Origin: Octopus sinensis
Lineage: Eukaryota
Direction of reading: 5' to 3'
Length of the DNA: 64,000 bases
Assembly: GCF_006345805.1 (NCBI RefSeq)
Contig: NC_043008.1
Location: forward strand, 29,822,001 to 29,886,000
This document shows, in pieces, positions 3,009-55,100 of the stretch. Under the pieces are notes generated by a model. That model made no database searches. It was not told the origin of the DNA and worked only from the letters and a program-made list of their open reading frames with translations. The translations under genes were made by a program, and so were the position numbers. Position 1 is the stretch's first letter. Each line of letters starts with the position of its first letter.

Positions 3009-4197
3009 CATGTGCTTATACTGTATATATATATATAGAGAGAGAGAGAGGGGGGTACTGTGCAGTGCGACACGTAGCAAAGATCGGGTTCAGTAATAGC
3101 TTTCGTTCTCTACTCTAGTACATGGTGTAGTACGGTACGTGGCTTGAATTTCAGAGTAGAGCAGTGTGCTGATATTGTTACATAACATTTTCAGAATTAT
3201 TATGGAATCTTGCACCTCAACTCATGTGTGTCCGTTTGAGTTGATACAAAATTACGAACACATGCAAACAAAATAACTGAGGTGTGTGATATTGTGCGAG
3301 TGTTAACATAGGTATAAGTATCTGTTATGCATTGCACGCGTGTACATGGCTTTCTCTATAAATCTTAACGTAGGAGACGGTTTATGTAAATATATCTAAG
3401 ATATTTAATCATTCGACAGTACAAGAATGTATAAACATTGAAGAGACATCAATGATGGTCACCAGTTATATGTTTCTGTAAACACGTATAAAAGCAATTG
3501 AATCGCATCTTTATATTACAGTGTATGACTGGATCGTTACATTTTTCAGACACACATCTCACAAGCGCACAAAGACATATAGGCACGCGAGTGTACCCAC
3601 GCACAACTTGACACACTACATGCACAGACACATATATACACGTACGCACACACGCACGCACACACGCGAAAAAACGCGCGTGCACACACGTTACACTCGT
3701 TTAATCCCAGCCCTCCTATCTCTTGGAAGCAACTACATATCTACATACACACATACAAACACACAAACAGATAGTTACAAGACTAATTCTTAGACAGATT
3801 CAAGGCTGACCTTGAAGAGAAAAGAAATATCAGTGATGTGTTCGCGAATAGCGGCGAAAGGACTTTTACAAACAACCAATTGATATTCGTAACCAACACC
3901 TTAAAGAAACGATCGTTTAGTTAGTTGGTTAGATATTTAACAAACTGAATAATTAAGTAGTAATACTGTACAAGTGTGTGCTTTTTATTATTTTTGGTGT
4001 AATGACACTCCCAAGACAAAAAAAAAAAACATTACTAAACTTATTATTCCAATATCTTGGACATGTACATTCATATCACTGTTTGGATGTGATCTAAAAT
4101 GACAAAAGTTTGGTTTCCTGCTTCATTTCCCAAGCTTACACGTTCACACATGCACGCCCATATACCCCACTACACACAAACAAGCACATGTGCACAT

Positions 4198-4626
4198 ATT
4201 ACAACCAGCATACATTTGATGATTAATCATTTATAAAATTGCAGCATAAGAATGCAACGCATATACCGATGCCAACAAATTATCTATAGGCAGAAATTTC
4301 ATCACATGAAACTATAGAAAAGGTTGCAAGACACAATGAAAATTTTAGAAAAATAAAACAGAAATAAGGGGAAAGTTTACCAGTAAGTGTGTTAAATTAT
4401 AAGTAATCAAAAGAGAATGACTCTCCCAAGACACAACAGAATATGCTTCAGCACAGGAACTCACATAAAGATTCTTGCAAACCAAATCCAAAAACGAAAT
4501 ATATATACATATATTCATGCCATGAAATTTCTTCCTATAGATAATTTGTGAGCGTCAGTATATATATTGCATTCTTATGCTGCAATTTTATAAATGATTA
4601 ATCATCATACGTATGCTGATTATAAT
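4198..4626. repeat. Inverted repeat (arms of about 105 bp, spacer about 200 bp); MITE-like or fold-back element
   Basis: 4206-4310 (cagcatacatttgatgattaatcatttataaaattgcagcataagaatgcaa...) is the reverse complement of 4513-4618 with scattered mismatches. Confidence 0.8.
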
Positions 4627-4902: not shown

Positions 4903-5289
4903 ACTCTTTCACTCTTTTACTTGTTTCTGTCATTTGACTGCGGCCATGCTGGAGCACCGCTTTTAGTCGAGCAAATCGACCCCAGGACTTATTCTTTGGA
5001 GGCCTAGTACTTATTCTATCGGTCTCTTTTGCCGAACCGCACAGTTACGATAATTTAAACACACCCCCATCGGTTGTCAAGTGATGTTGGGGAGGGGAGA
5101 CACACAAACATATACACACACACACACACACATATAAATATAAACATATATACGACGGGCTTCTTTCAGCTTCCGTCTACCAAATCCACTCACAAGGCTT
5201 TGGTCAGTCCGAAGCTATAGTAGAAGACACTTGCCCAAGGTGCCACATAGTGGGATTGAACCCGGGACAAGCTACTAACCACACAGCCA
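4903..5289 (-). mobile_element. tRNA-derived SINE, family A (octopus-type)
   Basis: Reverse complement of the 22546-23019 copy: tRNA-like head (ggctgtgtgg...gggttcaatccc), gatttggtagacggaa core, internal (CA)n. Confidence 0.85.
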
Positions 5290-6370
5290 ATTAATTTTTA
5301 ATCAATTAACATTGCGTATAATCGTTTCAATTTACACTAAATATAAATTACAAATTATATAACATAATATAATTTGGCATTTTTTAAGACTTTAAGTAAA
5401 ATATCTTCAGGGCATAAAGTGCATTACAGAACCGATGTGTTAGTCAGTGGTAGTATTCCAACAGATTCAATTTTATTGGAATACCTCAACTCATTCGCAT
5501 GTAAATTTCGTAATGTCCTTTATAGCCTGAAGATATTTCGCGGAAAGTCTCAAAAAATGCGAAATGATTTTATCATATACATTTTGCAATTTGTATTGAG
5601 TATAATTGAAATCATAATAGGCAATGATAATTAATTAACAATTAATTTATATCTATTATATCTCTCCATTTTCTTACTAATATTTGATATTTATATAATA
5701 TATATATTAAAGACGTATAACTTCAAAATAAAATGCATTAAACAAGTGTAACTTAGATAAAACTATCCCTGTAAGAGTTTTATATATCATCACAACGACT
5801 ATATATATTGTTGTACATTTATCACTGGCGTGATATGTGACTACTGTTGTACTATAGTTGCTGTTTTACACTCAATGCAACTTCTCATCGGATAGCGTTG
5901 TATCTCTTCGCACTGGAATAGCAATACACCACCTTTGCCTTACTATCGCTGATGCTTCCACAAAACACCGATTAGAAATGTTGATTCCCAACTCTTCGAC
6001 TCTCGACCCTCTGTTGACAACCAGCTAGTGGTCTATTTATAATGACTGGTTCCTACAACTTTTTTACCGGGAGGAGTATACAGTTTCACTGTACATACAC
6101 ATACACACACATATTGTTGTATCTTGAGATGGTCATTTTTTTGTGCCAAATAGACACACATACAATATTTTTTACTCGTTTATTACTGTTATTTTATTAT
6201 TTTAAAGCCTGTCCATAGTCCGGAAATCTTTTTTCACACGTCTGTGACATCTTCAGTGACACTTTTTGTTTCCGTGTGTATTCTCGCTCCACCTACACCA
6301 TTCTGTTCTTTTAATATGTGTATCCTTATGTGCGCATGCATTTGTATTAGGAATTTTTCAAAACGGATTA

Positions 6371-10797: not shown

Positions 10798-10828
<31 letters not shown>

Positions 10829-10829
10829 C

Positions 10830-11127
10830 CTCGTCTGGCCTTATTTACTGCATTAAATGCAACCTATGCGGGATGCTGTATGTAGGACAGACGGGACGCC
10901 GGTTGTCCGACCGTTTCACTGAACACTTGAGGGACGTTCGCCTACATTCTTTTTCTCCCGTCGCACGCCACTTCCGCTCGGCCGGCCATTCCCTAGATGA
11001 CATCTCAGTGTTTGGTCTCGCCCCCCACAATGGTCGCCCACTTTCCAGGCTCCACTTGGAGCAACGCTACATCTTCACTCTACAATCTACCACCCCACAC
11101 GGACTTAACACAGCCCCCTCCTCTTGA
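10830..11127 (+). pseudogene. GIY-YIG endonuclease domain remnant of a Penelope-like element
   Basis: CNLCGMLYVGQTGRRLSDRFTEH...PVARHF...H...LEQRYIFTLQSTTPHGLN matches the PLE C-terminal GIY-YIG pattern (CxxC, Y[IV]GQT, R, E, GLN). Confidence 0.88.
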
Positions 11128-13760: not shown

Positions 13761-14502
13761 CGCGCATACTCGCAGGCGCGCGCACACACGCGCTTGCGCC
13801 GGTTCGCGCACGCATACGCGCCGCATGCACCTCGCTCTTGGACCCGACGAGACCTCCCGCCCTTTCCTGGGACCGTCGCTTGTCGTTGGGTTTTCCCACG
13901 CCCGTCTCCGCGGGACCACTCTTCCATCTTCCCCTCAGCTGGAGTCCTTTTTCCTTAACCCCCCCCCCCTTTTTCGTTACACACACGCGCACACATATAC
14001 ACACATTGCTTAAATATATACATTACTCTTACACACATTCAATCTACTCGCCATTAATACTAGCACGACACTGGACACACACACACACTACTACTCAACA
14101 CACGCTGGCACGCTACATACGCCCCCATCCCTTCCCCTCCCTCCCTTCCTCCTTCCTTCTTTTTCTTACTACTGACCTTTGTCTGCTATGCTGACTATTG
14201 TCTCGCCCTACCTCACACGCCTACACACAGACGCACACACTAACACATACATATATTTTTTGTTTTTTATCTCGCCTCACACACACACATACACACACGC
14301 ATACGCACACACTCACACATACACACACATCTGTTGCGTTACCAACCTTGTCTCCACTCTTTTGCCTTTAAAAACCTACTTTGCTCTTGTTATCGTAAAC
14401 TTCCGCCTTTCACCATGTGTAACTCGTAAACACCAGTCGTTTTTTTTCTCTATCCCTGTTGCCCGCTCTGGGATCTTTCTTTCCTCTCTCTTCCTTATTT
14501 AT

Positions 14503-14537
14503 GTTTCCGACGAAGAGCTCCGCTCGAAACGTCATAC
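14503..14537 (+). ncRNA. Minimal hammerhead ribozyme variant (CCGACGA core)
   Basis: gttt CCGACGA a gagc tcc gctc GAAAC GT C atac; 4-bp stem II, palindromic loopless stem III (acgt), GUC site. Confidence 0.7.
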
Positions 14538-15069
14538 CTCCCTGCTTCCATTTCCTGAGCGCCTATTAATAATAATACTGTAATTGTTCCATTGTTGTTG
14601 TTTTTTTGTTTCCCGTTTGGATTAAAATTATATATATATATATATATACATGTGTGTGTTTGGTTAGCACGATATTATTAGATAATTTACAAATGGTTCT
14701 TTTTGTTAAAGACTGGTTCTTTCAAAGAGATACTGATAAAAGAATTCTGTTTGGAAATACTATTAACTATATATTGGCAAATTTAAGCAAATCAGCTTGC
14801 TTAAAAATATGATTATTTTTTGTGGGGGGGGGGTGAATTATAACAGATTGTCTAGAATTATCGATTCTCTTATATAAATTAATTAAAGCAATTTTGCTCG
14901 CCAGTTAAAGTTGGAAAACAAATTTAATATTAACATTTACAGTGAAAATGTTCAATGCATGTTATATCACTGAAATTACTAACAACCAATCCAGTATTAC
15001 CCCTATCATTGTGCTTTTAAAAAACATATTACATACATATTCTTGACGGTGTCGATAAAATATTTGTTT

Positions 15070-24072: not shown

Positions 24073-26764
24073 CTATGTTTGACTTTTGCTTTATATTTGT
24101 ACAAGTTGGCTCCAAGTCTCACCCAGAGACCTCAAGAGACAACAGGGTTGGAAGTTCATGTTGTTGTTATGCCTAGTGTGCCATATATTTGGGAGGTGGG
24201 GATGTTGTACTAATGAATGTTTAAAAAAAAAAAAAAAAGTTTTTTTTTTTTTTTTTTTTAAACCGAAAATTATGGTTGTTTTAAACCTTGAGGTTACATA
24301 GAGAGTATTTTGCGTAGGATATGAGCAGTTCCCATGAGCACTATCTTTTGAACTTCTGCCATTTTTGGGTTTCCTGGTATCTGAGTTAGGTAGCTATCAG
24401 CCCCTTTTGCTATCATTCCCAGGTATTGTTTTAGTCTTCAGCTTCCACATTTTGCTGATTTCTATTTCAAGATATTTATATTTGCTCAGTTTTTGGTAGG
24501 CCCTGACAGATACGTTTATATCGATTGGGACAGTCATATCAATGAGGAGGCATGTTCTTTGTTTGAAGTCTTTCAATATGATGTCTGGCCTATTTGCATC
24601 TATCTTCCTGTCAGTTTGAATGGTGAAGTTCCAGAGGAGTGAGATGTGGTCATTTTCAAGCACTGGGGGTGGTTTGTGTTCCCACCAGTTTTTTTCATGG
24701 GGCAAATCCAGGTTTTTACAGATTACCCAGTGAATATATTGTGCAGCTCTATCGTGCCTGTTGAGATACTCTGTAGGCGCTAGAAGACTGCACTTGGAGA
24801 CCACATGGTCAATGGTTTCATTTTGTTACTTGCATACACGACACGTTGGACTGCTTCTGATCTTTAATATGTTGGCCTGGTAGTTTCTTGTTGGTAGGCA
24901 TTGATCTTGAGCTGCTGTTTCAGATTTTAAGCCAGAGGCCATTAGCCATTGATGGGTCAGGGCTTTGTCGATATCTGCATTATTCGCTATCTTTGGGTAT
25001 TTGCCATAGATAGGTTTTTCTTGCCATTTATTATTCAGAATATCTAAGGCCGCAGTTTTGGCACGGGTTTTCATGCGCCTAGCTTTTTCTGTGCTTGTTT
25101 CTTGTATGTCTATCTCTAATTCCGAAATTGGTTGTATTCGGAATTCACTTAGATATTCCTTTGCCTGTTTTGTGACTGAGTATGATGCTTTCTTGTTTTC
25201 ATGTTTTGAGACAAGTTTTAACATCCAGTCCTCAGAGTTTTTCAGGTAGGTGTCTAGGCCAATTGTAGCAATCTTCATTGTTATTGCCTGTTGCAAAAGA
25301 CCACGGCCTCCCTCTTTTCTTGGCAGATAGAGTCGTTCTGTATCTGCCTTAGGGTGGTGCATTCTATGCATTGTCAACAGTTTCCTTATTTTTCTGTCGA
25401 GCTGACATATTTCAGTAATTGACCAGTTAACAATATTGAAACTGTAAGTCACGACTGGTATAGCTAATGCATTGATTGCTTCGATCCTGTTTCTTGCATT
25501 CAGCTCTGTCTTGAGTATTGCTCTCACTCTTCGATAGCATTCTCTCCTGATCCTTTCCTTCATCTCTGAATGCCTTATTCCGTTCCCTTCAATTACCCCT
25601 AGGTACTTGTAGCTCTCCGCTGGGTCTAGTTCTTTTATGACATTCTGTTGGTCAAGGTTAACGTTAGATGTTTCTGTCATTTTTCCTTTGATAAAGGTAG
25701 CCTTTGCACATTTATCGAGGCCGAATTGCATTCTGATGTCGTCACTGAATTGTTTGACTATCGCTAGTAAGCCCTTGAGTTGTTGATCATTTTTTGCAAA
25801 AAGCTTAAATCATCCATGTAAACGAGATGATTTATATTTATCAAACATTTTATACCCGTACTGCGCGTCATTGAGCAGCTTTGAGAGAGGTATTAAGGAT
25901 AAACAAAAGAGGAGTGGTGACAGTGAGTCACCCTGGAAAATGCCACACGAAATTTACATCACCAGCATTTAGGGATTCACTGTCACTGTTCAGAGTTAGT
26001 GTGGTTCTCCATGATCTCATACTTACAGTCAAGAAGTTTCGCAGAGTTGGTGCTATCTTATACATTTCAAGGCATTTCCTAATCCAGCTATGTGGTAGGC
26101 TATCAAAAGCCTTTTTATAGTCTATCCAGGCTATTGATAAGTTTTTGTGTCGTTTGTGACAATCTTCTAAGATCATCTTATTGATGAGTAGTTGGTCTTT
26201 ACAGCCGTAGGATCCACGTTTACATCCTTTCTGTTCATTAGGGAATATGCTGCTGTCTGTTAAAAAAACTATGGTATATTCCGTCAGGACAGATGTTAGT
26301 GTTTTGTACATAGTTGTTAAGCAGGTTATGGGTCTATAGTTTTTTGGTTCATTTGTTTCTTCACTTTTTGGAAGCAGGAATGTTAACCCATTAACTAGCC
26401 AAGGAGGCATCCTACTAAGGTGTTGCAAAACATCATTGTACAGTTCTGTTAGCAGTTCATGGCTCTCTGGGAAGGCATTCAGCCAGAAGTTAGGAATTTT
26501 ATCCTTTCCTGGAGACTTCCATTTGCTTGACCTCCTGAGAGCAGATCTTATATCTTCTACCTTGACACCCTCCACTTTTGCTCTTCTAAGGGGTCCAGTT
26601 CTGTAGATATTCTGTCAATCCAGGGGGCCTTTTCGTTGTGTGTTTTTTCTTCTGCCCAGATTTTATTCCAAAATCTCTGCACTTCTTCTTTTGATGGTAC
26701 AGACCCTGCAGTAAACGCTGTTTTTCCTATCTTCCTGTAAAAATTCTTGGTGTTATTTTTGAAC

Positions 26765-31007: not shown

Positions 31008-31168
31008 GACACAGACGATGTGTCGTTAGCCAGCTGGAGGAGATGTCTTCCAAGGGCTATAAACAACAGAAACATCGTCCCGTATGGATCCGCCACATTT
31101 AGGTGGCAAATATACTTCACGATTCCATGCTGCTACTGCTTATTTCTCACTCAGAGATTTAATATTGC
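31008..31168 (+). mobile_element. Family H1 fragment (3' part, no HHR)
   Basis: gccagctggaggagatgtc...gtggcaaatatacttcac...gatttaatattgc matches the 7226 and 51604 copies; ends in (TA)n. Confidence 0.8.
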
Positions 31169-40107: not shown

Positions 40108-40309
40108 ATATATGTATGTGTATATATATATATATATATATATCGGGAAGCTTTATGAAAATAGACAAAAGACGAAGGCAGGTGGAAAACAAACGAACAA
40201 TTGTATATATATACATATGTATATATGTATGTGTATATATATATATATTATATATATATATAATATATATATATGTATATATGTATGTGTATAATATATA
40301 TATATATAT

Positions 40310-40700
40310 ACAAATTTAAACGAATGACCACCAAAAGTGGATTCCTAATATGCTAAAGATAGACGTCAAATCGCCTCACCATGAAGAGCGTGTTCTGAAG
40401 ATAATTTCAGAAAACGCCAGAATATAAAAATTAGCAAGACAAATGAAAATATACGAAATAAAAATGATTAGCTACATACCATGGTTTCAATTGTTAATAT
40501 TCATGAATGTAAATATCTATAAACTCCACACCGTAGACTGGCGCTTACAAAACACAATTTCCAGAACTAGACACAGAACGCTCACCCGAAAAAGAGCCCT
40601 CTTAATTTGTATGTAATATAACTTTTAATCTCCGGATTTTTTAAATATGCTAAGCCACTGGTTTTAATTGATTAATGTCAATTTCCACCCTCATTATTTA
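40310..40700. mobile_element. Non-coding (TA)n-flanked element, family H2 (relative of 50962-51245)
   Basis: Both ends match the 50962-51245 element (gacgtcaaatcgc; ccactggttttaattgattaat). Confidence 0.7.
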
Positions 40701-41607: not shown

Positions 41608-41722
41608 CGACTTTGCCTTCGATAAATTAAGTACTAGTTACGCACTGGGGTTGATATAATCAACTTAATCCCTTTGTCTGTCCTAGTTTGTCCTCTCTAT
41701 GTTTAGCTCCTTGTGGGCATTA
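41608..41722 (+). mobile_element. SINE family B 3' fragment
   Basis: cgactttgcctt...gataaattaagtac...cactggggttgat...ttgtctgtcc...tatgtttagc. Confidence 0.75.
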
Positions 41723-42042
41723 AATAAATATATACTCTCGTTAAACTAATATATATATGCGGGTGTGCTAGCGTGCGCGTGAGTGTGTTTGTATGTAGAT
41801 ATGTATGTGTATATATAGATGTGTGTGTGTGTGTGTATATGTACATATATATATTTATATATGTATATGTGTGTGTGTGTATAAGGATGAAAAGGAACAC
41901 ACGAGTTGATAAATATGGAAAAAAAAGTAAAGATAGAAAATGCTAAAATAATTTTATAAAAATTTCAGTCATTGATACTTTTTCAACTGTAACAATTAAA
42001 TAATTAAATTTAGAAAAATTAAAAGAAAAGTTTTTATTAAGG

Positions 42043-42192
42043 AACCCACAAGGGGCTAAACATAGAGGGGACAAACAAGGACAGACAAACGGATTAAGCC
42101 GATTAGATCGACCCCAGTGCGAAAATGGTACTTTATTTATCGAACCCGAATGGATGAAAGGCAAAGTCGACCTCGGCAGAATTTGAACTCAG
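42043..42192 (-). mobile_element. SINE family B inserted in the left arm of the palindrome
   Basis: ggatgaaaggcaaagtcgacctcggcagaatttgaactcag; absent from the right arm. Confidence 0.88.
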
Positions 42193-43044
42193 AGTGTTCA
42201 AATACAAGTGGCATTTCCCTTGTTTCTTCCCGTCTGTGTCTCTCTTGTTTACTCTTGTGGGTTCGAGGTCGTTGTGAATTCTTGGTAGGGAAGAAGAAGG
42301 AGGAGGAGGAGGAAGAGTAGAAGGGCAAGAAGAAGAATAATTTGGGAGTGCCATGAAAGTAGTATTTTGAATGGTCAGTGGATGATAGCTATCGCTGCTC
42401 AATTCATGAATATATTTCTTTTGAATGTTTTGTTTATAGAATTCGCGTAGGTGTTATTCGAAAAAGCATTAGTGATAAAGTTATGTAGAAGAAGAAGAAG
42501 AAGAAGAAGAAGAAGAAGAGGGAGGAGAAGAAGAAGAAGAAGAGGAAGAAGGAGAAAAAAAAGAAGAAGAAGAAAGAGAAGGGTGAATAAGAATGAATGT
42601 AGATACTACTACCTACATTCGTTCTTATTCTCCCTTCTCTTTCTTCTTTTTCTCCCTCTTCTTCTTCTTCTTCTTCTTGTGGTTCCTAACTTTATCACTA
42701 ATGCTTTACGAATAACACCTACGCGAATTCTATAAACAAAACATTTAAAAGGAATATTTTCCTGAATTGAATAGGGACTGCTATCATCCACTGACCATTC
42801 AAAATACTACTATCATGGCACTCCCAAATTATTATTATTCTTCCTCTTCTCCTCACCTCCTCCTCCTTCTTCTTCTTCTTCTTCCTACCAAGAATTCACA
42901 ACGACCTCGAACCCACTAGAGTAAACAAGAGAAACAGAGACAGGCAGAAACAAGGAAAATGCTACTTGTATTTGAACACTATAGAAATATTCTTTTAAAA
43001 AATCTTTTCTTTAAATTTTTCTAAATTTAATTATTTAATTGTTA

Positions 43045-47629: not shown

Positions 47630-47644
47630 ATCTATATATATACG

Positions 47645-47997
47645 TCACGATGTGTTACCGCTACTGTATATAACTCACTTTGATATTTATCATTGTTTGA
47701 TTTCACTTTTTCAATATCAGCGACAGTGGACGCTGGAAAAAGTATAAGTATTTGTGAAGGAAATCTAATTCTCGGCGACAACTATGATTGTCACACGCTG
47801 ACGAGAGGTCAATACCTCGAAACTCGAGTCCGTGTGTATCATAAGTTGAAGACGGGAAGGATGACTTCCCTTTGCAAATACTGACAGGACACAGATAGTG
47901 TGTCTATGGCCAGCTGGAGGAGTGTGTCCTCCTGGGGCTAAAAACTACAGTAGCATCCACCCTTAGGGGTTAGCCATATTGAAATGGCAAAAATACG

Positions 47998-48001
<4 letters not shown>
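47645..48001 (+). mobile_element. Family H1 non-coding element carrying an intact hammerhead ribozyme
   Basis: 3' part homologous to the 7226, 31008 and 51604 copies; (TA)n on both sides. Confidence 0.8.
47792..47836 (+). ncRNA. Minimal type-I hammerhead ribozyme, canonical core
   Basis: cacacg CTGACGA gaggt caat acctc GAAAC tcga GT C cgtgtg: 6-bp stem I, 5-bp stem II closed by G-C, palindromic stem III, GUC site; predicted cleavage after 47830. Confidence 0.92.
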
Positions 48002-50890: not shown

Positions 50891-50961
50891 TATATATATA
50901 TTATATATATATATATATATAATATATATATATATATATACATACATACTTTCATATATAT

Positions 50962-51603: not shown

Positions 51604-52020
51604 CTCCCTAATATTATATATAATACATCTCTGAACGATGTAGCTGCACGACAATGTGAAGTATATTTGCCACTTAAATGTGGCTAATCACTAAGGGTGG
51701 ATGCTACTGTACCTTGTAGCCCCAGAAGAACATCTTCTCTAGCTGGCTATTGACACATTTTCTGTTCCCAGTAATTGCAAAGGGAAGCCATCCTTCCCAT
51801 CGTCGAACTGACGTAATACGCACGGACCCAGGTTTCTGGGTATTTACCCGTCGTCAGCGCACGACATTCACCGGTCTTTGATGCGGATGGCTTCCCTTTG
51901 AAATTACTGGTCACAGAAAGTGTGTCAATACCCAGCTGGAGATGTTCTTCTGGGCCTGCAAGCTACAGTACCATCCACCTTTAGTGGTTAGCCACATTTA
52001 ACTGGCAAATATAATTCATA
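51604..52020 (-). mobile_element. Family H1 fold-back element with a hammerhead ribozyme in the loop
   Basis: Arms 51655-51793 and 51885-52020 are inverted; the HHR lies in the spacer; the tail 51604-51654 is present on one side only. Confidence 0.85.
51819..51863 (-). ncRNA. Minimal type-I hammerhead ribozyme
   Basis: Minus strand: cgtgcg CTGACGA c gggta aa taccc a GAAAC ctgg GT C cgtgcg; full core, stem I with two G-U pairs, C-A mismatch at the base of stem II. Confidence 0.85.
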
Positions 52021-52084
52021 TTATATGTGTGTGTGTGTGTATTTCCATTTACACACACACACACACATTATTTTATTATTTTAT

Positions 52085-54434: not shown

Positions 54435-55088
54435 CCTTTGCACAGCTTCTAACGCTGGAAATGTGTACTACGGTGTCAGCCGTTCACTACCAGTGAACTA
54501 CGGTAAAACCTCATATTTTTCGAGCACCTTCCGGGGTTTTCGAACGTTTCCAAGCAGTGCAAGCGCCCCAACCTTATTGCAGCCCTTATTTGTTCCATGT
54601 ACTTCTCGAGATTTTTACTCAGTATTCCCTGGGCTCTGACAATTAATGGTACCACTACCATATTTTCTCATCGACCACAACTTCTTTGCTTCCCAAGATG
54701 ACCTGTCATACTTATCGGCTTCTCTTGGTACCACCACAAACCCGAAGGCCTCATCGAAAATGATAATGCAAAGATCCTGTGGGATTTTATGACTCATTGC
54801 GACCATGAGATAGAGAATAGGAAGCCAGACATAGTCTTAATTGAGAAAGAAATTAAACTATGCTGGATCATAGATATATCATGTCTAGCTGACAACAAGG
54901 TATTTATCGTATACCTTGTTGTCAGCTAGACATGATATATCTATGATCCAGCATAGTTTAATTTCTTTCTCAATTAAGACTATGTCTGGCTTCCTATTCT
55001 CTATCTCATGGTCGCAATGAGTCATAAAATCCCACAGGATCTTTACATTATCATTTTCGATGATGCCCTCGGGTTTGTGGTCGTACCA
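54435..55088 (-). mobile_element. R4/Dong 3' fragment with an internal inverted duplication
   Basis: Minus-strand WYDHKPEGIIENDNVKILWDF...NRKPDIVLI...WIIDISC, then an inverted copy, then KLWSM...VVVPLIV; (ATT)n on both flanks. Confidence 0.85.
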
Positions 55089-55100
55089 ATTTTATTATTA

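What the first reader, a model, noticed from the sequence alone, without database searches (positions are those of the whole stretch)
51604..52020. Second H1 copy: ribozyme in the loop of a 135-bp hairpin, with compensatory stem changes
Seen in sequence: the minus-strand HHR (cgtgcg CTGACGA cgggta aa taccca GAAAC ctgg GTC cgtgcg) keeps the same core as the 47792 copy while stems differ yet still pair: stem I cacacg/cgtgtg versus cgtgcg/cgtgcg (two G-U), stem II gaggt/acctc versus gggta/taccc. It sits in the spacer between two long inverted arms. Inference: the covariation points to selection on RNA structure in the family, and the arms leave the ribozyme unpaired so it could fold and open the hairpin loop. 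The C-A pair at the base of stem II may weaken this copy.
Basis: partly seen in the sequence, partly recalled or inferred. Interest (0 to 1): 0.75.

Follow-up and report, generated by a model that had tools for sequence, protein, structure and literature searches.

The report
Decayed retrozyme copy with inverted arm
This is an old, likely dead copy of a very abundant small jumping element that carries a hammerhead (self-cutting RNA) motif, and the long hairpin around the motif is likely a by-product of how Penelope-type retrotransposons paste such copies into DNA, not a device that controls the ribozyme.

Summary
The motif and hairpin are real: a type I hammerhead (51819-51863, minus strand) in a 91-nt spacer between 138-bp inverted arms. 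The family is large (1,665-2,964 contigs laid per DNA run, three organism labels). Stem changes against the 47792 copy are mostly compensatory, so family-level selection on the fold is weakly supported (two lineages only). The proposed design is not. The insert has the Penelope-like signature: an inverted 5'-truncated copy, a tail on one end only, a 9-bp target duplication and TA-rich flanks. Only 1 of 12 other fold-back joints seen holds a whole hammerhead. Predicted folding gives the hammerhead helices about zero probability with or without the arm. Three copy-private changes damage it, and none of the 15 arm mismatches is a G-U pair on its strand. The C-A at the base of stem II is the subfamily's majority state, not this copy's decay. 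Helix III is palindromic, so cleavage likely needs two ribozymes. The sister copy (47640-48001) looks like one 353-nt, strongly self-paired retrozyme-type unit. The point worth keeping: a retrozyme-like unit with Penelope integration marks supports the published, unproven idea that Penelope elements mobilise animal retrozymes.

The parts
51611..51619 (+). Left copy of a 9-bp target-site duplication (ATATTATAT)
   Evidence: Identical to 52018-52026; 12 of 2,911 composition-matched windows, and 10 of the 521 holding TATAT/ATATA, share a 9-mer or longer with this flank
51620..51655 (-). One-sided 3' tail: 36 nt here, 48 nt in the 31-kb copy; absent from the inverted arm
   Evidence: Alignment A2; 60-85 contigs per DNA run leave the alignment together at 51640 with one tail consensus (table 7)
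51656..51793 (-). Sense arm: the 3' part of the element, ending at the recurrent short end TTCAC; holds small conserved hairpins, e.g. 51669-51684
   Evidence: heterogeneous loose ends at 51655/51656
51813..51871 (-). Type I hammerhead with extended stem I: stem I 51863-51858 with 51824-51819, core 51857-51851, stem II 51850-51837 (C-A at base, loop AAAT), GAAA 51836-51833, helix III with near-palindromic loop 51833-51826; predicted cut between 51825 and 51824
   Evidence: private changes at 51830, 51815, 51867
51872..51888 (-). 5' truncation point and head-to-head junction, inside the zone where the element's upstream strand is naturally complementary to its downstream strand
   Evidence: junction crossed by X1 record 8 with 0 differences; other contigs leave the alignment at 51885
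51885..52017 (+). Inverted, 5'-truncated second copy, ending at the short end without tail
   Evidence: shares two rare states with the sense arm: A at 51774 (98-99.8% of laid depth has T) and a 4-nt deletion near 51769
52018..52026 (+). Right copy of the 9-bp target-site duplication
47640..48001 (+). Sister copy: one complete permuted 353-nt unit (tail, 90 nt, hammerhead 47792-47836, arm, short end) with a 9-nt terminal direct repeat, in (TA)n
   Evidence: Direct repeat D4, spacing 353; 5' end homologous to the 7-kb and 31-kb tails, 0 of 2,000 shuffles each; fold z -8.42; Rfam RF00163 32.2 bits
7227..7537 (.). Second fold-back copy: long arm (minus) with only the 3' half of a decayed hammerhead and the short end; short inverted arm (plus) carrying the tail; (TA)n flanks
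31008..31167 (+). 5'-truncated copy: arm and tail only, ending in (TA)n

Best explanation
This is a decayed, 5'-truncated insertion of an abundant short repeat carrying a type I hammerhead, likely a non-autonomous retrozyme-type unit of about 350 nt that was likely pasted in by the enzymes of a Penelope-like element (PLE), which would have made the hairpin as a by-product. Shown in sequence: inverted truncated copy, tail at one end only, two recurrent 3' ends, 9-bp target duplication, TA-rich target, both arms from one rare lineage. Inferred mechanism: a PLE GIY-YIG endonuclease cuts both strands of an AT-rich site 9 bp apart; reverse transcription starts from each cut at one of two internal start sites (one gives the tail, the other the short end); both cDNAs stop early and are joined head to head. 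Here one cDNA ran about 20 nt past stem I of the hammerhead and the other stopped 25 nt short of it, so the ribozyme lies in the loop. The ribozyme's likely job belongs to the source RNA: two neighbouring hammerheads in a tandem transcript pair through their palindromic helix III loops and cut out unit-length RNA, which may circularise (inferred from published retrozymes, untested here). This solo copy is predicted to misfold and has been drifting since insertion (arms about 10% apart).
For: PLE signature in print: inverted 5'-truncated copy plus a 30-40-bp tail at one end (PMC8557442); 8-10-bp duplications around inverted pLTRs (PMC3846280); a PLE protein cuts and extends both strands and starts at two internal sites that define the tail (PMC11167929). 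Here: TSD; tail on the ribozyme strand at 51.6 kb but on the inverted arm at 7.5 kb; laid depth falls 5'-ward in X1 from 217,839 (51695-51709) to 26,079 (51785-51799), about 3,500-3,700 over the hammerhead and 737 at 51875-51889, with the same shape in X2 and X3 (relative only); 1 of 12 visible fold-back joints holds a whole hammerhead. Retrozyme type: 353-nt unit, z -8.42, upstream strand pairs with downstream strand (0 of 5,000 shuffles), canonical 6/4/2-bp helices with palindromic loop (PMC4209133), helix III self-duplex -9.8 and -10.7 kcal/mol against +2.9 as a hairpin, stops in all three frames of both hammerhead copies. Decay: 51830, 51815 and 51867 differ from 75-89%, 98-99.6% and 98-100% of laid depth; gap to the double-hammerhead fold 22.9 kcal/mol as is, 9.6 with 51830 at the majority letter, 5.6 with four sites at the majority, 2.3 for the 47-kb copy; 0 of 15 arm mismatches are G-U on the ribozyme strand.
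Against: No tandem array of the unit was seen (64 kb only; no genome held), and unit length rests on one copy. No autonomous partner is linked: the GIY-YIG remnant at 10828-11124 (PF01541, 20.9 bits, below the 22.6 cut-off) and the minimal-hammerhead-like stretch near 14508 share no BLAST hit with this family. The tail in other copies (48 nt) is longer than the 30-40 bp in print. Homology of the 47-kb 5' end to this copy's own tail is weak (56 of 2,000 shuffles). In the 31-kb copy and the 7-kb inverted arm one frame is open for 54 and 36 codons, so a PLE ORF start is not excluded. The joints are short-sided (19-52 letters where given), 8 rows were not shown, and junctions identical to this copy's or upstream of 51885 cannot appear. 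Energy models ignore tertiary contacts and protein help (the PAc hammerhead cuts only with protein). Even with four majority letters the monomer does not favour the hammerhead fold (penalty 9.7 kcal/mol).
Confidence: 0.68

Rival explanations
1. The same integration by-product, but the sequence is simply the truncated pseudo-LTR of an autonomous Penelope-like element; the 47-kb copy is a partial tandem, not a self-standing unit.
For: All structural marks are those described for autonomous PLEs. One frame is open through arm and tail in the 31-kb copy and the 7-kb inverted arm. No tandem array seen.
Against: The hammerhead is the canonical type with a full helix III loop, which PMC7229834 assigns to retrozymes, whereas PLE pLTRs carry minimal forms. 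In the 47-kb copy tail, 90 nt and hammerhead fold as one unit. Both hammerhead copies have stops in all frames.
Confidence: 0.2
2. One reading: the arms are a selected frame that keeps the ribozyme unpaired so that it can cut and open the hairpin.
For: The whole hammerhead does lie in the 91-nt spacer; the core is intact; stems covary between the two copies.
Against: The arm changes the predicted folding penalty by under 1 kcal/mol (13.4 against 14.0); scattered breakpoints; no G-U buffering on the ribozyme strand; private damage to the ribozyme; helix III likely needs a second hammerhead.
Confidence: 0.05
3. A fold-back DNA element (MITE-like), or a local inverted duplication that arose after insertion.
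For: Long terminal inverted repeats with a target duplication look like a MITE, and the window holds several unrelated fold-backs. The arms share rare states, which a later duplication would also give.
Against: The ends are asymmetric (tail on one side); arm lengths and inner breakpoints vary among copies; most copies are single, 5'-truncated arms; the target duplication encloses both arms, so they arrived together.
Confidence: 0.04
4. The host uses the hairpin as a double-stranded RNA (small-RNA source or editing substrate), with the ribozyme irrelevant.
For: Very stable hairpin; all 6 transition mismatches between the arms give G-U pairs on the plus strand, none on the minus (p=0.03, n=6, post hoc).
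Against: 9 of 15 mismatches are transversions that break pairing on both strands; no evidence that this locus is transcribed.
Confidence: 0.03

Closest known systems
Non-LTR (animal) retrozymes (Cervera and de la Pena 2020, PMC7229834; Li, Clavereau and Pollet, bioRxiv 10.64898/2026.07.22.740005)
   Same: Canonical type I hammerhead in a short, low-GC, non-coding, self-paired unit (353 nt; mussel units are 350-390 bp). A mismatch at the base of helix II is known in an axolotl family (U-U there, C-A here). Dispersed monomers are described.
   Different: No tandem array or circular RNA shown here. Neither text describes an inverted copy or a tail: 'inverted' occurs 0 times in PMC7229834; in the preprint 'inverted' occurs once, in a reference title, and 'tail' 0 times.
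Insertions of endonuclease-bearing Penelope-like elements with an inverted pLTR and tail (PMC8557442, PMC3846280, PMC11167929)
   Same: Inverted 5'-truncated copy joined head to head, tail at one end only, 8-10-bp target duplication, AT-rich or (TA)n target, hammerhead upstream of the two 3' ends.
   Different: No RT or GIY-YIG ORF in the element; canonical rather than minimal hammerhead; tail 36-48 nt; no partner element identified.
Dimeric metazoan type I hammerheads with palindromic loop 3 (PMC4209133)
   Same: Helix I 6 bp, helix II 4 bp, helix III 2 bp with palindromic tetraloop; loops differ between copies (TCGA; CCGG as subfamily majority) yet stay self-complementary.
   Different: C-A instead of the usual G-C at the base of helix II; this copy's loop has decayed to CTGG.

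Membership tests
Canonical metazoan type I hammerhead | Core CUGANGA, GAAA and NUH triplet in type I order | tested here: met
Canonical metazoan type I hammerhead | Helix I 6 bp, helix II 4 bp, helix III 1-2 bp with palindromic loop | tested here: met
   the loop is a perfect palindrome in the subfamily majority and pairs through two G-U in this copy
Canonical metazoan type I hammerhead | G-C pair at the base of helix II (10.1-11.1; consensus recalled) | tested here: not met
   C-A in this copy and in most laid contigs; met in the 47-kb copy
Canonical metazoan type I hammerhead | Rfam RF00163 at the gathering score | tested here: not met
   47-kb copy 32.2 bits against 34; 51.8-kb copy not listed at E<=10
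Canonical metazoan type I hammerhead | Self-cleavage | not testable with these tools
   Folding predicts a misfold for this copy
Non-LTR retrozyme | Unit of 150-450 bp, GC under 50%, non-coding, with a canonical type I hammerhead | tested here: met
   353 nt in the one complete copy; GC 0.43-0.47 over matched parts; stops in all frames
Non-LTR retrozyme | Tandem arrangement (dimers to multimers) | tested here: inconclusive
   None among 6 family segments in 64 kb; only one unit plus 9 nt at 47640-48001; no genome held
Non-LTR retrozyme | Highly self-paired RNA | tested here: met
   z -8.42, 0 of 100 shuffles; 63% paired as a circle
Non-LTR retrozyme | Expressed as unit-length linear and circular RNA | not testable with these tools
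   Only contigs were available
Penelope-like element insertion | Inverted 5'-truncated copy adjoining the 5' end | tested here: met
   Two cases in the window and 12 joints in contigs
Penelope-like element insertion | Optional tail at one end; two recurrent 3' ends | tested here: met
   3 segments end at the short end and 3 carry the tail; loose ends
Penelope-like element insertion | AT-rich or microsatellite target, short target duplication | tested here: met
   9-bp duplication; (TA)n at the other 3' ends
Penelope-like element (autonomous) | ORF with RT and GIY-YIG endonuclease | tested here: not met
   No such ORF in or beside the element
Penelope-like element (autonomous) | Shared pLTR sequence with an autonomous partner | not testable with these tools
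   No host genome or repeat library held; no match to the PLE remnant in the window

The most novel reading that the evidence does not exclude
A 353-nt retrozyme family, shared by at least three organism labels, whose thousands of genomic copies bear the full Penelope integration signature (two fixed start sites, one-sided tail, head-to-head inverted copy, 9-bp duplication): direct structural evidence that PLE enzymes mobilise animal retrozymes. Two further readings are not excluded. The 47-kb copy records one full lap plus 9 nt round a circular template, since both terminal repeats carry the same rare G. And the two cDNAs are joined by annealing through the element's own stem below the hammerhead, which would explain why this ribozyme ends up capping a long hairpin. 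The main subfamily would also be a working hammerhead with a C-A pair at the base of helix II.
Probability: 0.35. Interest if true: 0.55.

Novelty: new member of a known kind. Interest (0 to 1): 0.3.

Why it matters
The locus itself is likely a fossil. The family matters modestly. How animal retrozymes get back into genomes is open: PMC7229834 names PLEs as candidates and the 2026 preprint adds co-occurrence and pLTR phylogeny, but neither shows insertion signatures. A high-copy unit with fixed start sites gives a direct test: does a host PLE protein start reverse transcription on this RNA at the two mapped ends? It also warns that such fold-backs can be mis-filed as MITEs or as regulated ribozyme hairpins.

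Tried and rejected
No whole genome is held, so a genome-wide alignment and R-scape were impossible. Pattern scans for further copies found 0 in metagenome contigs, 0 in prokaryote genomes and 0 in viral contigs. No RNA holder was listed. Run X19, only guessed to be RNA, laid 152 contigs; this is no evidence on expression. The first alignment A1 mixed orientations and was discarded for A2. RNAalifold on A2 found only the arm hairpins, because 3 of 6 rows lack the hammerhead region. The miRNA-family Rfam matches are microsatellite hairpins far below gathering scores. Promoter and terminator scan at chance level and bacterial in type; no tRNA gene in the window, so no ARAGORN support for a tRNA-derived SINE. 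Other CTGANGA...GAAA strings in the window fail the stem test. Earlier findings by sequence and by place: none. Joints dropped before the count of 12: three plain skips within the sense strand (51684-51734, 51684-51770, 51687-51808) and three opposite-strand rows that only hop to the mirror position of the other arm (51702, 51714, 51769). The permutation p=0.0007 after removing three copy-private sites is post hoc and is not relied on. The host was not identified: 'octopus-like' is my recollection of microsatellite-rich genomes and was used only to pick search terms.

Full report
Setting. The window is AT-rich (GC 0.27-0.46 per 2 kb), full of microsatellites and of broken RT-bearing ORFs: a repeat-rich eukaryote, most likely an animal. 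No genome is held. The host was not identified.

The observation. A scan requiring core plus stems finds only this one and the one at 47798; 0 perfect-core hits in each of 20 shuffled windows. The arms 51653-51793 and 51885-52022 align over 138 bases with 15 mismatches and a 3-nt gap. A short-read contig crosses the junction without a difference. Rfam gives the 47-kb copy 32.2 bits (cut-off 34) and does not list this copy at E<=10.

The family. BLAST and a profile search find six family segments at four loci in the window. Laying four runs at 80% identity placed 1,665, 1,873 and 2,964 contigs from runs of three organism labels, and 152 from a run guessed to be RNA (4 of the 24 runs listed). 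Depth falls steeply towards the 5' end in X1, X2 and X3, as expected for target-primed retroposition with 5' truncation; the tool warns that depth is no copy number, and divergence between subfamilies will add to the fall. Copies end at two places: three segments stop at TTCAC, three run on through a tail of 36-48 nt. The contigs show the same two ends (table 7). At 51.6 kb the ribozyme strand has the tail and the inverted arm the short end; at 7.2-7.5 kb it is the other way round. The 51.6-kb insert is enclosed by a 9-bp direct repeat, matched by 12 of 2,911 control windows. The two arms share two states rare in the family (A at 51774; a 4-nt deletion near 51769), so they came from one template lineage. 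Leaving out the boundary base they differ at 14 of 136 sites, about 5.5% per arm.

This is the published Penelope-like pattern: an inverted 5'-truncated copy next to the 5' end and a 30-40-bp tail at one end (PMC8557442, passages); 8-10-bp duplications round inverted pLTRs (PMC3846280, passages); and in vitro a PLE protein cuts and extends both DNA strands and starts at two internal RNA sites that bound the tail, with hammerhead mutants inserting normally (PMC11167929, passages and second part of the main text). PMC4209133 also notes hammerhead pairs on opposite strands 100-700 bp apart (first of four parts and passages).

Is the ribozyme placed in the loop on purpose? One search shows 18 distinct joints (15 in table 5, 3 more in table 5c; 8 rows hidden). 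Six were dropped (three simple skips, three mirror hops). Of the 12 fold-back joints, 8 hold no hammerhead sequence, 3 stop at its edge or inside it, and 1 has a whole one on one arm and a cut one on the other. Limits: sides are short, and junctions like this copy's or further upstream cannot show. The second hairpin in the window lacks CTGANGA. Folding gives stems I and II probability 0.0 in the full hairpin, without the arm and in the spacer alone; the penalty to reach the hammerhead fold is 13.4, 14.0 and 14.0 kcal/mol, against 5.1 for the 47-kb copy. None of the 15 arm mismatches is a G-U pair on the ribozyme strand; all six transitions give G-U on the other strand, which I cannot explain and n is small.

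What the ribozyme needs. Helix III has two pairs and a 4-nt loop. As a hairpin it costs +2.9 kcal/mol; as an 8-bp duplex between two molecules it gains -9.8 (this copy) or -10.7 (47-kb copy). The loop differs between copies but stays self-complementary, the dimer design described in PMC4209133. Most laid contigs have the perfect palindrome; this copy has lost it at 51830 and has two more private changes in the extended stem I. The gap to the double-hammerhead fold is 22.9 kcal/mol as is, 9.6 with 51830 at the majority letter, 5.6 with four sites at the majority, and 2.3 for the 47-kb copy. So this copy is likely dead. The C-A at the base of stem II is not its own defect: in X1 all 12 listed changes from T are accounted for elsewhere, so no variant of 5% or more is listed at 51837, while 6-19% of depth has U instead of C at 51850. 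An axolotl retrozyme family has a U-U there (PMC7229834, passage).

Covariation. Between the two hammerheads 16 positions differ in columns 14-72; five pairs changed on both sides (2.2 expected, p=0.017), four keeping the pair, one of them across loop 3. The pair counter reports 89.7% of cells paired (4 of 500 shuffles), 4 both-side changes (19 of 500) and a covariation score reached by 37 of 500. With two lineages this is suggestive only. It speaks for selection on the source elements, not on this insertion.

The unit. The 47-kb copy begins with the last nine bases of the arm and the tail (0 of 2,000 shuffles against the 7-kb and 31-kb tails; 56 of 2,000 against this copy's more decayed tail), runs through 90 nt into the hammerhead and arm, and ends on the same nine bases, 353 nt on. 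Both repeats carry a G that the other five segments lack. The 353 nt fold with z -8.42. The strand upstream of the hammerhead pairs with the strand downstream (0 of 5,000 shuffles), and the tail pairs back on the arm when the unit is closed into a circle. This fits a retrozyme monomer (mussel units 350-390 bp; PMC7229834, sections 14 and 17), but a partial tandem of a longer PLE is not excluded. The junction of the 51.8-kb copy falls within that natural stem, where the inverted arm and the true upstream strand resemble each other. Annealing of the two cDNAs there is a hypothesis resting on this one junction.

What is known. Retrozymes as PLE dependants is proposed in PMC7229834 and argued from co-occurrence and pLTR phylogeny in bioRxiv 10.64898/2026.07.22.740005 (parts 1-3 of 5 and a term search). 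Six literature searches turned up no paper describing a retrozyme with tail and inverted copy; 'hammerhead ribozyme' with 'octopus' gave 5 papers, 4 listed, none on such an element by title or abstract start. PMC13282606 (passages) has no mention of ribozymes; its supplement was listed but not read. PMC8969392 was seen as passages. The library lacks most subscription papers, preprint supplements are closed, and Repbase and Dfam were not searchable, so the family may already be catalogued under another label. One earlier AI note from another genome reached a similar verdict on a different fold-back; it is not independent support.

Verdict. A real hammerhead and a real hairpin, in a decayed copy of a retrozyme-like, likely PLE-mobilised repeat. 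The hairpin is likely an integration scar. Interest 0.3.

Noticed in passing
window:10828-11124 and 14500-14545: A GIY-YIG fragment (PF01541, 20.9 bits, below cut-off) followed by about 3 kb of (CA)n-rich sequence and a minimal-hammerhead-like stretch with a changed core (CCGACGA) near 14508: likely the decayed 3' end of an autonomous PLE of another family.
   Followed up: partly
window:50959-51157, 54725-55089, 5289-5647, 42193-42980, 4198-4626, 41618-42144: Six unrelated fold-back or terminal-inverted-repeat elements (74-96% self-identity). The 199-bp one at 50959 has a partial second copy at 40305-40374. Likely MITEs or inverted SINE pairs.
   Followed up: partly
window:57606-63067 and 24397-26614 (minus): Broken non-LTR retrotransposon ORFs with RVT_1 (and zf-RVT) matches; several 3' fragments lie in a row.
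   Followed up: no
window:51653-51793 against 51885-52022: All six transition mismatches between the arms form G-U pairs on the plus strand and none on the ribozyme strand; five of nine transversions are C/G. Unexplained, small numbers.
   Followed up: partly
window:51669-51684 and equivalents: A 5-bp hairpin just upstream of the short 3' end is kept in all six segments; its inner pair is C-G, U-A or U-G in five and broken in one. A candidate signal for the reverse transcriptase.
   Followed up: partly
window:6945-6975 (minus): A CTGACGA...GGAAAC string with a very short insert; it fails the stem test and has no second copy in the window.
   Followed up: partly
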